27,689 nucleotides of DNA, from NCBI GenBank assembly GCA_964354495.1, contig CAYHAA010000023.1:1-27689 (forward strand), in the 5' to 3' direction. The position numbers and the translations under genes were made by a program. The stretch's first letter is position 1. The number at the start of each line of letters is the position of its first letter. Under the pieces are notes generated by a model, which saw only the letters and a program-made list of their open reading frames with translations, was not told where the DNA came from and ran no database searches. This stretch comes from an uncultured archaeon (GTDB lineage: Archaea; Asgardarchaeota; Thorarchaeia; Thorarchaeales; Thorarchaeaceae). This document shows, one piece after another, positions 11,171 through 13,806 of this stretch.

Positions 11171-11233
11171 ATTGCCACCATGCTCACAGTCCACTTGTTC
11201 TGTAATAAGAATCGTCTTCAAAGCATTTGGAGA

Positions 11234-11281
11234 TAAATAAAAAGAGGGTGGGAACGAAGGTGGGCAGTTGGAAACCGCCCA
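11234..11281 (-). terminator. Terminator of the histone gene
   Basis: Minus-strand hairpin TGGGCGGTT-TCC-AACTGCCCA (9 bp including one G-U) followed by a pyrimidine tract ending CTCTTTTTATTTA. Confidence 0.65.
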
Positions 11282-11303
11282 TCCCGTCTCTTGTACTAAT
11301 GAC

Positions 11304-11513
11304 CTAGAAGTCGTAAGCCTTCAGGGTCTTTCGCTTGTTGTCTTTGCAGCGAGCTGCTGCGTCGAGAAGCAGGTGGTTGATGGCGTTGTTGAATGCTTCA
11401 TATGAATCGCTGCCGACCATCATATCCTTATCTCTAGCAAAATCCTGTATTGCCTTCTTGACATAGAAGGTGTACTTTGTATCTTTAGCCACTGGCTTTG
11501 CTTTCTTTGACAT
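11304..11513 (-). CDS. Histone-fold protein, alpha3-truncated face-to-face type, with Lys-rich N-terminal extension
   Basis: alpha1 YVKKAIQDFAR, L1 MMVGSD, long alpha2 SYEAFNNAINHLLLDAAARCKDN, L2 RKTLKAYD, terminating one residue after the conserved Asp (DF*). Same architecture as Leptospira HLp (...KRTTVRPTDF*). Confidence 0.88.
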   Translation of the reverse strand: MSKKAKPVAKDTKYTFYVKKAIQDFARDKDMMVGSDSYEAFNNAINHLLLDAAARCKDNKRKTLKAYDF

Positions 11514-12022
11514 TTCTTAACCCCATATAGTGCTTTCCCGCTTGGCAAGGCTGGGCAACAAGTTGCATCCGCACCTCCAAGCAAAGGCGAAGATAGCCAT
11601 AGTTATCTGGTTAATAAGCATATGGGGCATAGAATGCCTTTGCAGGCTGACCTGAAGGATTTCTACGGAGGCTCTGTTTGGAGCCACAGACGGCGTCAAA
11701 AGTACTGTTTTGCGAGGGTCTCCGGATGACTGTCATTCATTTTTGGCACCTGGCTTCTGCCCAACCCCGGAGAGAAACATCGAAGATGAATTGAGGCGGA
11801 ATGGAGTTGTTACAGCACGCACGATTCAAGCTGAGGTAATCATTGGGTCAGGCCCGGGCTTCGCAATACATGTTCATCATGCACGATCAAACACGAACTC
11901 TCTTCACATTCCGCATCGTCTGAGTTTCGTATTCGAACCTTTTCTTGAACTCCCTCTTCACACTAGGCAAGAATGAAATCTCCTTCATTGTGAATTGCGT
12001 CCGTGAACTGTAATTAGATACA

Positions 12023-12063: not shown

Positions 12064-13026
12064 ATGACCGAACATATTGATGATATCAAGAGAGAACTCG
12101 AAGAGGTTCGTAGGCTCAAGGAAGAGCTACAACGGGAAGTCGAGGATACTAAACGGCAGAAAGAAGAGATGCGTCGAGAGAGGGATGACGATGATAAAGG
12201 TCGAGAGGAAGCCCGAAGATTCCACTACGATATGGGAACGCCTCGACCTCCAAAGCCTCCGAAGTCTCCAAAGCCTCCTCGAGAACCCAGACATGTGCCA
12301 CCCGTGAAGATTGACATCGCTGGCATCACAGATAGCCTTGAGGACATGATGGAGGATCTTGGTCATTCAATAGAGATGTCTATCAAAGACTTCGAAGGCT
12401 TAGCAGAAGGTTGCAGGATTCCAGGTGTCCATATCCGCACACACGGCCACAGGGGGAAGGCTGATATGAGAAAAGAGATTGAAGCCATAATCCCTGAACG
12501 CATTGCAAAGATAGTTGCACCTCTCGGGAGTGAGGAACGCCTTGGAATTCTGGACTATCTCAAGGGCGGCGGCAAATCTTTCAATGACATTGAAACCTTC
12601 ACCGGGAAGACCGGGAGCTCCCTTACTCACCATCTCAACCCGCTCGTGGAAGCAGGTTATGTTGTGAAGGGAGAGGTACGAGGGACCTACTACGTCACAG
12701 TGGAAGGTCGCCTAGCATACCGTCTGGCTCAGTGGCTCACTCACAGAGTTGAGAAACAGCGTGAGCAGACTGGAAACAATGGCGACAGTGGTGAGAGTAG
12801 GGTCGATGTGGAGTTCGACGAAACTTCTGAAGGTGATGCCGATACTATCGTGCTTGAGAATGAGGACGACGTTGAGGCGGCTGCTGATCACCTCGACAGG
12901 GTTGCAGACCAGATAGAGGAGGCTCAGGACAAAATCGATGAGGCACGGGATGCCCAAGATGAAGCAGAAGACCAAGATGATGAGGATGATGAAGATGACA
13001 TCGATGATTTGGACTGGAAGGACTAG
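12064..13026 (+). CDS. ArsR-like winged-helix regulator with N-terminal coiled coil, Pro-rich linker and long acidic tail
   Basis: wHTH core LGSEERLGILDYL.GG.KSF.DI...TG.TGSSLTHHL..L...GYV......G.Y.VT.EG. Heptad-like IKRELEEVRRLKEELQREVED. PRPPKPPKSPKPPREP. D/E-rich C-terminus ending DDLDWKD. Confidence 0.85.
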   Translation: MTEHIDDIKRELEEVRRLKEELQREVEDTKRQKEEMRRERDDDDKGREEARRFHYDMGTPRPPKPPKSPKPPREPRHVPPVKIDIAGITDSLEDMMEDLGHSIEMSIKDFEGLAEGCRIPGVHIRTHGHRGKADMRKEIEAIIPERIAKIVAPLGSEERLGILDYLKGGGKSFNDIETFTGKTGSSLTHHLNPLVEAGYVVKGEVRGTYYVTVEGRLAYRLAQWLTHRVEKQREQTGNNGDSGESRVDVEFDETSEGDADTIVLENEDDVEAAADHLDRVADQIEEAQDKIDEARDAQDEAEDQDDEDDEDDIDDLDWKD

Positions 13027-13041
13027 AGGAGGAACAACAAG

Positions 13042-13806
13042 ATGAAGCGACTAATACCTGATGACAATGTAATGGTCACAACTGAGAACTATGATCTGAT
13101 CTCCCACGATAAGGCATTGGTCAAGATGGATGCTGGCTGTGTCTGGGTGTATCTTCTCGAGGACGGAGTGCGAGTTGGTGCTGCGTTCGTCGGACCATCC
13201 CGATTCGCAGTTGACGCTATCGCTGAGACCAAGCTCGGCGCCATGGGTGAGTCGGTGTCTGGCACCCTTGAGGGAATTCAGCTCTATGTCGGGGCAGTGC
13301 CCCTAGAGGCCATCTCCAGGAGTGCTGATGATTCATCTCTTCAGCAGCGAGGCTTTCATGATAGGAAGTATTTCTTGGCAGAAATTGAATCGACAATCAA
13401 GGACCAGCTGAATGGTGACCAAAAACAGGTGAAGATGGATCAGAAGGAGAAGTCCCAGATACTCTTCGGTCGTGATTCTGAGAAGGTCAAACTCATCCTG
13501 ATTCTGAGTCAGAAGAAGGGTCTAGTCTTCACCCGCGGGAAGCAGGTGTTCGTGCTCGATGATGACAATATGGTTTCGGTGAGCAAGTCTGGTGTTGCCA
13601 TTACAGACAAGCATGGGAAGCACATCGTTGTGGGGAAGGGTGGCATACATGGTATTGACAACTTCGTGGACATCGGGCCAATCGTTACAGAATCGGTGAC
13701 CAATGCAATGAAGAGCCTGAAGGGTCTAAAGTCTCTGAAGTCTATGAAGCAAAGCATGAAGGGCTTTCCCTACGACAATGTAGATGATTTCGATTGGGAT
13801 GACTAG
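13042..13806 (+). CDS. Hypothetical soluble beta-rich protein, co-transcribed with the wHTH gene
   Basis: 254 aa, SD GAGGAGG upstream, 15-bp gap. Beta-hairpin-like VSVSKSGVAITDKHGKHIVVGKGG, KSLK-type repeats, ends DDFDWDD. Confidence 0.8.
   Translation: MKRLIPDDNVMVTTENYDLISHDKALVKMDAGCVWVYLLEDGVRVGAAFVGPSRFAVDAIAETKLGAMGESVSGTLEGIQLYVGAVPLEAISRSADDSSLQQRGFHDRKYFLAEIESTIKDQLNGDQKQVKMDQKEKSQILFGRDSEKVKLILILSQKKGLVFTRGKQVFVLDDDNMVSVSKSGVAITDKHGKHIVVGKGGIHGIDNFVDIGPIVTESVTNAMKSLKGLKSLKSMKQSMKGFPYDNVDDFDWDD

What the first reader, a model, noticed from the sequence alone, without database searches (positions are those of the whole stretch)
11304..11513. Face-to-face-type (alpha3-truncated) histone carrying a Lys-rich N-terminal tail
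Seen: a 69-aa histone fold with the L2 motif RKTLKAYD that stops at F immediately after the Asp, so helix alpha3 is missing. The fold is preceded by MSKKAKPVAKDTK (4 Lys in the first 10 residues, 5 in 13). Established: HMf-like nucleosomal histones need the alpha3 region for the four-helix-bundle tetramer, whereas alpha3-truncated face-to-face histones such as Leptospira HLp end in this way and bind DNA differently. Inference: this is a non-nucleosomal histone with a potentially modifiable eukaryote-like tail. Tails are usually discussed for nucleosomal Asgard histones. It has its own strong terminator, suggesting a highly expressed chromatin protein.
Basis: partly seen in the sequence, partly recalled or inferred. 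Interest (0 to 1): 0.7.

Follow-up and report, generated by a model that had tools for sequence, protein, structure and literature searches.

The report
Tailed face-to-face histone of Thorarchaeota
This is a real, conserved 69-codon gene of an Asgard (Thorarchaeota-like) archaeon for a short "face-to-face" histone with a floppy lysine-rich front end, but this class of DNA-packaging protein is already described, so the find is well supported and largely ordinary.

Summary
The ORF at 11304-11513 (-) exists exactly as described. It has 69 codons, a Lys-rich first 13 residues, and a stop directly after RKTLKAYDF.

It belongs to the alpha3-truncated, face-to-face (FtF) histone class:
- The family profile hits the two solved FtF histones, HLp (E 1e-9) and HTkC (3e-9). 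It hits the dimeric HBb at 0.08 and the nucleosomal HMfA at 0.56.
- The AF2 model overlays HLp at 1 A.
- All FtF tetramer residues are present and invariant in 98 relatives: R55, N59, R61, T63, D68 and the C-terminal F69.
- A homotetramer model passes its controls, although like complexes are solved.

The gene is found in 42 of 43 sampled genomes of its family. The tail is a K/A/P-rich, low-complexity extension of 0 to about 27 residues, and fold charge falls as tail charge rises.

The same genome also encodes a tail-less FtF paralogue and one HMf-type histone.

An invariant TATA-like box, an SD-like site and a hairpin plus T-tract frame a single-gene unit. Similar hairpins follow other genes, so they do not show high expression.

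Basic tails are already known on bacterial FtF histones. This scan has reported tailed FtF histones on other DNA, including one from Heimdallarchaeia.

Tail modification is untested. Verdict: a new member of a known kind.

The parts
11304..11513 (-). CDS of the 69-aa alpha3-truncated (FtF-type) histone, including the stop TAG at 11304-11306
   Evidence: ORF and translation; homologues; structure
11475..11513 (-). Codons 1-13: Lys-rich N-terminal tail with net charge +4. Residues 1-8 are predicted disordered.
   Evidence: pLDDT below 50 for residues 1-8; tail statistics in homologues
11307..11474 (-). Codons 14-69: histone fold. It has an ordered N-terminal strand at 14-18, alpha1 at 19-28, L1, alpha2 at 37-58, L2 with R61-K62-T63, and a one-turn alpha3 at 66-68. 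The tetramer residues are R55, N59, R61, D68 and the C-terminal F69.
   Evidence: residue roles taken from PMC11390915, PMC12701072 and bioRxiv 10.64898/2025.12.06.692711
11521..11524 (-). SD-like GGGG, 8-11 nt upstream of the ATG. A GGGG or GAGG lies at the same place in 14 loci of the genus.
   Evidence: Upstream alignment
11611..11624 (-). Candidate archaeal promoter core: CATATGCTTATTAA. The TATA-like CTTATTAA at 11618-11611 is invariant in 14 loci of the genus and lies about 100 nt upstream of the ATG.
   Evidence: Upstream alignment. That it acts as a promoter is inferred.
11259..11285 (-). G+C-rich 3' hairpin starting 18 nt after the stop. The inner stem GGGCGGT (11280-11274) pairs with ACTGCCC (11268-11262).
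   Evidence: Fold z = -3.05; 9 consensus pairs in the genus, 3 of them with changes on both sides; an equivalent hairpin in 28 loci of the family
11231..11245 (-). T-rich tract (T5 at 11243-11239, then ATTTAT): candidate archaeal termination signal
   Evidence: Sequence; a T-run of 4 or more follows the hairpin in 23 of 28 related loci

Best explanation

Shown or well supported by comparison:
- It has a histone fold with a shortened alpha2 and a one-turn alpha3.
- It pairs into a handshake dimer.
- It keeps every residue by which two dimers of HLp and HTkC join face to face. R55 corresponds to HLp R49 and HTkC R45, which binds the C-terminal carboxylate of the opposite dimer. That carboxylate is F69 here, which explains why the stop falls right after Asp-Phe. 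N59 and R61 form the hydrogen-bond network. R61 and D68 form the clamp that shapes loop L2.

Inferred by homology:
- The closed tetramer wraps roughly 50-60 bp of DNA without sequence preference.
- Contacts come from the N-terminal end of alpha1 (K19, K20, R27) and from loops L1 and L2 (K62, T63, K65).

Inferred for the tail:
- Each monomer's tail leaves the fold at the DNA-contacting end of alpha1.
- It carries +4 of the protein's net +6 charge.
- Its most likely role is an extra, non-specific DNA clamp or charge neutraliser that strengthens binding or compaction.
- The tail may or may not also be modified.

Gene organisation: it is a leadered, single-gene unit with its own TATA-like box, an SD-like site and a hairpin plus oligo-T end.
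For: Sequence placement. phmmer against the PDB finds only HLp (9qt0, E 6e-4) and HTkC (9f2c). The 98-sequence profile scores HLp at 9.8e-10 and HTkC at 3e-9, against HBb at 0.08 and HMfA at 0.56.

Fold. The AF2 model has pLDDT 84.2. The top Foldseek hits are HLp 9qt0/9qt1 (TM by target 0.93-0.94, rmsd 0.9-1.0 A), then HBb and HTkC.

Signature residues. R55, N59, R61, T63 and D68 are invariant in alignment A1. They are kept in 140-144 of the 148 best cluster representatives.

Oligomer.
- The four-copy model scored 0.85 and the best of 3 controls scored 0.00.
- That mark was reached by 20 of 30 proteins solved as pairs of one chain and by 1 of 23 solved as single chains.
- The runs agree in at least 97% of their contacts, and the partner's pLDDT is at least 88.
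- Dimer-dimer contacts fall at residues 54-55, 58-59 and 65-68, the FtF interface.
- Like complexes (9QT0, 9F2C) are solved, so this pass shows likeness and may come from the model's memory.

Conservation. The gene is found in 42 of 43 sampled genomes of the same family and in 14 of 14 of the genus.

Tail as charge carrier. Tails are K 39%, A 25% and P 11%. Mean fold charge falls from +5.7 to +2.1 as mean tail charge rises from -0.9 to +7.0 across tail-length classes.

Transcription unit. The TATA-like box is invariant and an SD-like site is conserved. The hairpin plus T-tract is conserved. Contigs from RNA libraries of two studies hold the gene with short flanks (11277-11575) at about 96-97% identity.
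Against: - No experiment exists on this protein or any Thorarchaeota orthologue.
- The complex tool scores only one copy, so ring closure (torus against open tetramer) could not be read from it.
- HLp K17 and T27 correspond to Q23 and V33 here, so the DNA contacts are not identical (alignment).
- The charge trade-off is computed on related sequences that are not independent, so it may partly reflect clade structure.
- RNA-library contigs do not prove transcription and say nothing about expression level.
Confidence: 0.85

Rival explanations
1. The tail is mainly a regulatory platform, as in eukaryotes and in the tailed nucleosomal histones of Lokiarchaeia and Hodarchaeales. Its lysines would be methylated or acetylated to tune chromatin. 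It is compatible with the FtF assignment and rivals only the 'plain DNA clamp' role.
For: The tail is disordered and Lys-rich. A 2026 preprint (10.64898/2026.07.02.735847) reports methylated lysines on Asgard nucleosomal histone tails. One such peptide, AKKKTPAKK, has a make-up close to the SKKAKP.AK of this family. The preprint also reports an Asgard acetyltransferase that acts on Lys-rich tails.
Against: Tail sequence and length are not conserved: 0 to about 27 residues, with no fixed Lys position beyond K3/K4. That fits bulk charge better than site-specific marks. Like tails occur on bacterial alpha3 histones (PMC11390915). No modification data exist for any FtF histone in the papers read.
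Confidence: 0.2
2. It acts as a dimeric DNA-bending protein like HBb of Bdellovibrio (the 'bacterial dimer' class) and not as a tetramer.
For: The monomer fold is nearly as close to HBb as to HTkC (TM by target 0.81-0.85). The HTkC R45A mutant behaves as a dimeric bender (bioRxiv 10.64898/2025.12.06.692711), which shows that the two modes are one residue apart.
Against: The bacterial dimer class is defined by the lack of the R48 and N52 profile residues (PMC11390915). Here both are present (R55, N59) and invariant. The profile scores HBb seven orders of magnitude worse than HLp and HTkC. The tetramer model passes with contacts at the FtF interface.
Confidence: 0.07
3. The tailed protein works mainly in mixed oligomers with the tail-less FtF paralogue of the same genome (G000 contig 1, 368825-368995, 53% identical). 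The tailed-to-untailed ratio would then set how tightly DNA is packed.
For: Most genomes of the genus hold two copies. The second copies lie in stop-to-stop frames of 57-72 aa, too short for a tail in at least four genomes. The paralogue keeps the R, N, R, T and D signature and ends Asp-Leu-stop.
Against: Nothing was tested. At 53% identity the two may have separated into distinct homo-oligomers. The two genes are not linked.
Confidence: 0.25
4. It is an HMf-type nucleosomal histone whose alpha3 is missing through a sequencing or assembly error or a recent nonsense mutation.
For: There are weak sub-threshold Pfam hits to PF00125 (17.4 bits) and PF00808 (14.6 bits), and the L2 motif is RKT as in nucleosomal histones.
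Against: The same stop position occurs in all 120 close homologues and in 28 loci of the family. It also occurs in 95 of 148 distant representatives. The genome has a separate bona fide HMf-type histone scoring 50 bits on PF00808. HMfA scores only E 0.56 against the family profile.
Confidence: 0.01

Closest known systems
HLp, the FtF histone of Leptospira perolatii (PDB 9QT0/9QT1/9QT2; Hu et al. 2025, PMC12701072)
   Same: It is the best sequence and fold match. Both end in Asp-Phe-stop. HLp R49, N53, R55, T57, D62 and F63 correspond to R55, N59, R61, T63, D68 and F69 here. Both have a short disordered N-terminal extension; in HLp the first seven residues are not seen in the crystal.
   Different: HLp is bacterial. 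Identity is only 28-30%. This protein has K62 (RKT) where HLp has T (RTT), and it has a nearly invariant Cys56. Tails in this clade are K/A/P repeats of variable length. HLp has been shown to wrap about 60 bp, and nothing has been shown here.
HTkC of Thermococcus kodakarensis (PDB 9F2C; PMC11390915; bioRxiv 10.64898/2025.12.06.692711)
   Same: It is an archaeal FtF histone that coexists with nucleosomal histones in one genome. R45 binds the C-terminal carboxylate of the opposite dimer, which corresponds to R55 and F69 here. The profile E-value is 3e-9.
   Different: HTkC has no tail. It has E where this family has N59 (alignment).
HBb (Bd0055) of Bdellovibrio bacteriovorus, the 'bacterial dimer' alpha3 histone (PDB 8CMP, 8FVX, 9EZZ, 9F0E)
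   Same: It has the same truncated fold (TM by target 0.81-0.85).
   Different: Its class lacks the tetramer residues R48 and N52 (PMC11390915). It bends DNA as a dimer. Its profile E-value is only 0.08.
Tailed nucleosomal histones of Asgard archaea (HLoB, HMpB; bioRxiv 10.64898/2026.07.02.735847)
   Same: They come from the same phylum and carry Lys-rich disordered N-terminal extensions of similar make-up.
   Different: The fold class is different: a full alpha3 with hypernucleosome-type assembly. In this genome the HMf-type histone has at most a short extension, and the longest Lys-rich tail sits on the FtF histone.
Alpha3-truncated histones of the Heimdallarchaeia MAG 'KowaHeim1' (same preprint)
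   Same: They are Asgard alpha3-truncated (FtF) histones, reported as abundant chromatin proteins.
   Different: They come from another class of Asgard archaea. The text read does not discuss their tails. No sequence was available for comparison.

Membership tests
alpha3-truncated histones (Schwab et al. 2024, PMC11390915) | Histone fold (helix-loop-helix-loop-helix) that forms a handshake dimer | tested here: met
   The AF2 model has pLDDT 84.2 with helices at 19-28 and 37-58 and a turn at 66-68. All top Foldseek hits are histones. The intradimer contacts have the lowest predicted errors.
alpha3-truncated histones (Schwab et al. 2024, PMC11390915) | Alpha3 of only 3-4 residues, and alpha2 shorter than in nucleosomal histones | tested here: met
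   Alpha3 spans residues 66-68 and the protein ends at 69. Alpha2 has 22 residues. The stop position is conserved.
Face-to-face (FtF) histones | Arg of the dimer-dimer interface (profile R48; HTkC R45; HLp R49) | tested here: met
   R55 aligns with HLp R49. It is invariant in 98 sequences and present in 140 of 148 representatives.
Face-to-face (FtF) histones | Asn of the interface (profile N52; HLp N53) | tested here: met
   N59 is invariant in A1 and present in 140 of 148 representatives.
Face-to-face (FtF) histones | RxTxxxxD motif of loop L2 (the RD clamp), with the chain ending one residue after the Asp so that the carboxylate can meet the interface Arg | tested here: met
   R61, T63 and D68 are followed by F69 and the stop. 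The three motif residues are invariant.
Face-to-face (FtF) histones | Closed, torus-shaped homotetramer | tested here: inconclusive
   The four-copy model scored 0.85 against a best control of 0.00, with contacts at 54-55, 58-59 and 65-68. Only one copy is scored and no coordinates are returned, so ring closure was not seen. Like complexes are solved, so the pass may come from the model's memory.
Face-to-face (FtF) histones | Wraps about 50-60 bp of DNA around the tetramer | not testable with these tools
   This was shown for HLp and HTkC only (PMC12701072; bioRxiv 10.64898/2025.12.06.692711).
Bacterial dimer histones (HBb-like) | Lack of profile residues R48 and N52; confined to bacteria | tested here: not met
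   Both residues are present. The homologues that carry a source name are named as Asgard archaea.
Nucleosomal HMf-type archaeal histones (Pfam PF00808) | Alpha3 of about 10 residues forming the four-helix bundle; PF00808 score above its cut-off | tested here: not met
   PF00808 scores 14.6 bits against a cut-off of 21.4. HMfA scores E 0.56 against the family profile. The genome's own HMf-type histone scores 50.5 bits.
DUF1931 pseudodimeric histones (the label NCBI gives some homologues) | Two histone folds in one chain and a match to the DUF1931 Pfam model; the class lacks DNA-binding residues | tested here: not met
   The protein has a single fold. No DUF1931 hit appears even at E<=10. The RKT and alpha1 lysines are kept. 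The name on homologues is an annotation carry-over.
Modifiable, eukaryote-like histone tails | Site-specific Lys methylation or acetylation with dedicated writers and erasers | not testable with these tools
   Only composition and disorder could be checked.

The most novel reading that the evidence does not exclude
In Thorarchaeia, and perhaps in several Asgard lineages, the lysine-rich Asgard-type tail sits on the face-to-face histone and not on the nucleosomal one. A tailed and an untailed FtF paralogue would together act as a two-state chromatin system. The tail's lysines would be modified like those recently reported on Loki and Hod nucleosomal histones. That would mean histone tails and their regulation arose, or moved, across histone classes before eukaryotes appeared.
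Probability: 0.12. Interest if true: 0.65.

Novelty: new member of a known kind. Interest (0 to 1): 0.3.

Why it matters
FtF histones were defined in 2024 and shown to wrap DNA in 2025. They are reported in Asgard archaea, but the survey states that archaeal FtF histones generally lack tails.

This locus shows the following:
- A whole Asgard family (42 of 43 genomes sampled) keeps an FtF histone that usually carries a K/A/P-rich tail.
- Several other Asgard families have similar MAKKK-type extensions.
- One genome can hold a tailed FtF histone, a tail-less FtF histone and a nucleosomal histone side by side.

For work on Asgard chromatin, this means tails should be looked for on non-nucleosomal histones too. 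Beyond that it is a correct annotation of a gene that pipelines call 'hypothetical' or 'DUF1931'. It is not a new kind of system.

Tried and rejected
- NCBIfam gave only a spurious sub-threshold SigZ hit.
- Rfam (gathering thresholds) and ARAGORN found nothing in the whole window.
- The sigma-70 and terminator pattern scan found no more sites than shuffles and missed the real hairpin, because the T-tract lies about 15 nt after the stem.
- Sequencing runs: only small shares of the 1.1-kb query were held. When laid, the RNA-library contigs covered only 11277-11575, and in another run 11738-11936. The lack of cover over the neighbouring genes is not evidence of anything. These contigs give no transcript ends, strand or level.
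- The complex job cannot tell a closed torus from an open tetramer, because one copy is scored and no coordinates are returned.
- The listing of cluster members named only one of ten tailed distant representatives (Bdellovibrionales). The split of tailed alpha3 histones between archaea and bacteria outside Asgard therefore could not be counted.
- The idea that the 3' hairpin is special to the histone mRNA, by analogy with the metazoan histone stem-loop, was dropped. Comparable hairpins follow at least six other genes of the window, several of them between convergent genes.
- The TATAT at -16..-12 from the ATG was considered as a TATA box for a leaderless mRNA and rejected. It lies too close to the ATG and is not conserved, whereas CTTATTAA about 100 nt upstream is invariant.
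- Pfam gave nothing for the N-terminal domains of the fused forms P0122, P0130, P0131 and P0207.
- No tree or CLANS map of all histone classes was built. Placement rests on profile scores, fold matches and signature residues.

Full report
**1. The observation**

The minus strand of the window carries an ATG-started ORF from 11513 down to 11307, with a TAG stop at 11306-11304. It encodes 69 residues.
- The first 13 residues hold five lysines.
- The last residues are ...NKRKTLKAYDF.
- An in-frame TAA sits two codons upstream of the ATG.
- The closest relative (94% identical, named as a Thorarchaeota MAG) has TAC at that place. This explains why its record is annotated 15 residues longer.
- Most of the other 120 close homologues start at the same Met, as MSKK.. 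or MAKK...
- The next in-frame Met is M31, behind helix alpha1, so a downstream start is excluded.

**2. What it is**

Standard libraries miss it. PF00125 and PF00808 score below their cut-offs and NCBIfam has nothing relevant.

Comparison with solved structures places it clearly.
- The single sequence finds only HLp of Leptospira perolatii (9qt0) and HTkC of Thermococcus kodakarensis (9f2c).
- A profile of 98 relatives scores these two at 9.8e-10 and 3e-9.
- The same profile scores the dimeric bacterial histone HBb at 0.08 and the nucleosomal HMfA at 0.56.
- The AlphaFold2 model has mean pLDDT 84.2, with alpha1 at 19-28, alpha2 at 37-58 and a single turn at 66-68. Residues 1-8 score below 50.
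- The model superposes on HLp with TM 0.93-0.94 and rmsd about 1 A, ahead of HBb and HTkC.

**3. Membership in the face-to-face class**

Schwab et al. 2024 (PMC11390915) define alpha3 histones by a 3-4-residue alpha3. Within them, FtF histones are defined by a torus-shaped tetramer held by profile residues R48 and N52 plus the RxTxxxxD motif. 'Bacterial dimer' histones lack R48 and N52.

Two later papers identify the key contacts.
- Hu et al. 2025 (PMC12701072) name R49, S52 and N53 against R55, T61 and F63 of the opposite dimer in HLp.
- The HTkC preprint (10.64898/2025.12.06.692711) shows that R45 binds the C-terminal carboxylate and that R45A turns the tetramer into a dimer.

The gap-free alignment maps these residues to R55, N59, R61, T63, D68 and the C-terminal F69.
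- R55, N59, R61, T63 and D68 are invariant in the 98-sequence alignment.
- They are kept in 140-144 of the 148 best cluster representatives out of 894 hits.

A four-copy model scored 0.85, with the best of three controls at 0.00.
- That mark was reached by 20 of 30 proteins solved as pairs of one chain and by 1 of 23 solved as single chains.
- The runs agree in at least 97% of contacts, and the partner's pLDDT is at least 88.
- The contacts between dimers lie at 54-55, 58-59 and 65-68, exactly the FtF interface.
- Like complexes are solved, so this shows likeness and not binding. The tool also does not show whether the ring closes.

I therefore file the protein as an FtF histone. The tetramer geometry and DNA wrapping are inferred by homology.

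**4. The tail**

In 120 close homologues the residues before the fold number from 3 (MAD-) to about 27. They are made of K (39%), A (25%), P (11%), T and S.

Within the genus, tails of 7, 10, 12, 15, 18, 23 and 24 residues occur. The tail is thus a rapidly changing low-complexity extension. Its basic character and MSKK/MAKK start are conserved, but its sequence is not.

In the window's protein the tail carries +4 and the fold only +2. Across tail-length classes, mean fold charge falls from +5.7 to +2.1 as mean tail charge rises from -0.9 to +7.0. These sequences are related and therefore not independent.

In HLp the N-terminal end of alpha1 touches DNA. The tail leaves the fold right there, which suggests an additional non-specific DNA contact.

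Such tails are not peculiar to this clade.
- Twenty of 112 single-fold distant representatives have a basic extension, and one of them is from Bdellovibrionales.
- Alpha3 histones of other Asgard families sampled here also begin MAKKK.., MVKKKK.. or MSKKKK...
- Schwab et al. state that tails are common on bacterial FtF histones but generally absent from archaeal ones. These Asgard clades are an exception to that second statement.
- I found no paper in the held library that discusses tails on Asgard FtF histones.
- A 2026 preprint reports abundant alpha3-truncated histones in a Heimdallarchaeia MAG. It also reports methylated Lys-rich tails on nucleosomal Asgard histones, one peptide being AKKKTPAKK.
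- Modification of the present tail is possible but untested.

**5. Distribution and paralogues**

The window's genome has 3.3 Mb in 51 contigs and is 97.7% complete. It holds three histone-fold genes.
- This tailed FtF histone.
- A tail-less FtF paralogue, 53% identical, ending ..KPYDL.
- One bona fide HMf-type histone scoring 50 bits on PF00808, with at most a short N-terminal extension.

With this protein as query, 97 of 201 sampled genomes of the phylum have a match. So do 42 of 43 genomes of the same family and 14 of 14 of the genus, most of them with two copies.

**6. Transcription unit**

- Upstream, the motif CATAT(G/C)CTTATTAA is conserved, and its CTTATTAA is invariant in 14 loci of the genus. 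It lies at 11624-11611, about 100 nt before the ATG.
- A GGGG or GAGG element lies 8-11 nt before the ATG. I read these as a TATA box and an SD site of a leadered mRNA. This is inference.
- Downstream, a G+C-rich hairpin starts 18 nt after the stop and is followed by T5.
- In the genus the consensus hairpin has nine pairs, three of them with changes on both sides.
- In 28 loci of the family a hairpin (median -20.7 kcal/mol in 40 nt) lies in the first 60 nt or so after the stop. In 26 of them it is the most or second most stable local fold of the 2-3 kb locus, and 23 are followed by a T-run of four or more.
- However, similar hairpins follow at least six other genes of this window. This is the organism's usual gene-end style and no sign of special expression.
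- Contigs from RNA libraries of two studies hold the gene with short flanks (11277-11575) at about 96-97% identity. Their differences match the closest relative's tail. This is compatible with expression but does not prove it.

**7. Context**

The gene is divergently paired with an ArsR-type winged-helix protein that has a very acidic C-terminus (12064-13026) and with its downstream partner (13042-13806).
- This pair is next to the histone gene in at least 21 of 29 related loci, down to 45% protein identity.
- The downstream side is less conserved.

**8. Verdict**

The 'eukaryote-like, modifiable' reading of the tail and the expression argument are not established.

This scan has reported tailed FtF histones before on other DNA, including one from Heimdallarchaeia. 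I agree with those readings. This is a new member of a known kind, of modest interest.

Noticed in passing
window 12064-13806 (+), next to the histone gene: An ArsR-type wHTH protein (PF01022, E 7e-6) has a charged coiled-coil N-terminus and an extremely acidic C-terminus. Together with the 254-aa protein after it, it is divergently paired with the FtF histone gene in at least 21 of 29 related loci, down to 45% identity. A very acidic protein kept beside a histone gene could be a regulator or a chaperone-like partner. This was not tested.
   Followed up: partly
window 11738-11936 (+), in the 550-nt intergenic region: A contig from a sediment RNA library matches this stretch at 90-95% identity. 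There is no Rfam or tRNA hit. The 88-aa ORF here is less conserved as protein (62%) than the DNA is (82%) in the closest relative, so it is probably non-coding: a 5' leader of the wHTH gene or a small RNA.
   Followed up: partly
G000 contig 1, 368825-368995 (-) (L007 1495-1665) and 410736-410918 (+) (L001): The same genome has a tail-less FtF paralogue (56 aa, 53% identical, ending KPYDL) and a single HMf-type nucleosomal histone. The latter probably starts at a TTG preceded by a purine-rich SD, which would give only a 6-8-residue extension.
   Followed up: partly
proteins P0122, P0130, P0131, P0207: These are fused forms of about 200-260 aa. An N-terminal domain of about 140 residues with no Pfam match, sharing motifs such as Y.YYD.RGV and GSIG, is joined to one or two Thor-like alpha3 histone folds that end NKRKTLKAYDF/L. 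This may be an undescribed histone architecture.
   Followed up: partly
residue 56 of the protein (window 11346-11348): Cys56, next to the tetramer Arg (R-C-K), is kept in at least 90% of the Thorarchaeota clade. Other FtF histones, including the tail-less paralogue and HLp, have T or A there. In the model it lies among the contacts within the dimer. Its role is unknown.
   Followed up: no
representatives (for example P0129, P0137, P0140, P0146): Many relatives of about 120 aa are tandem doublets of two alpha3 folds in one chain, each repeat keeping the R..N.R.T....D signature. They look like covalent dimers of FtF-type histones.
   Followed up: no
genome G014 (another Asgard family), contigs C147, C197, C205, C243: This genome has five alpha3-histone matches, three of them with an in-frame stop. 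That suggests local expansion and decay of the gene family.
   Followed up: no
window 13806/13919, 21728/21773 and 24570/24618: Strong shared hairpins (-17 to -22 kcal/mol in 40 nt) sit between convergent gene pairs. They look like bidirectional gene-end structures and seem to be the usual terminator style of this genome.
   Followed up: partly
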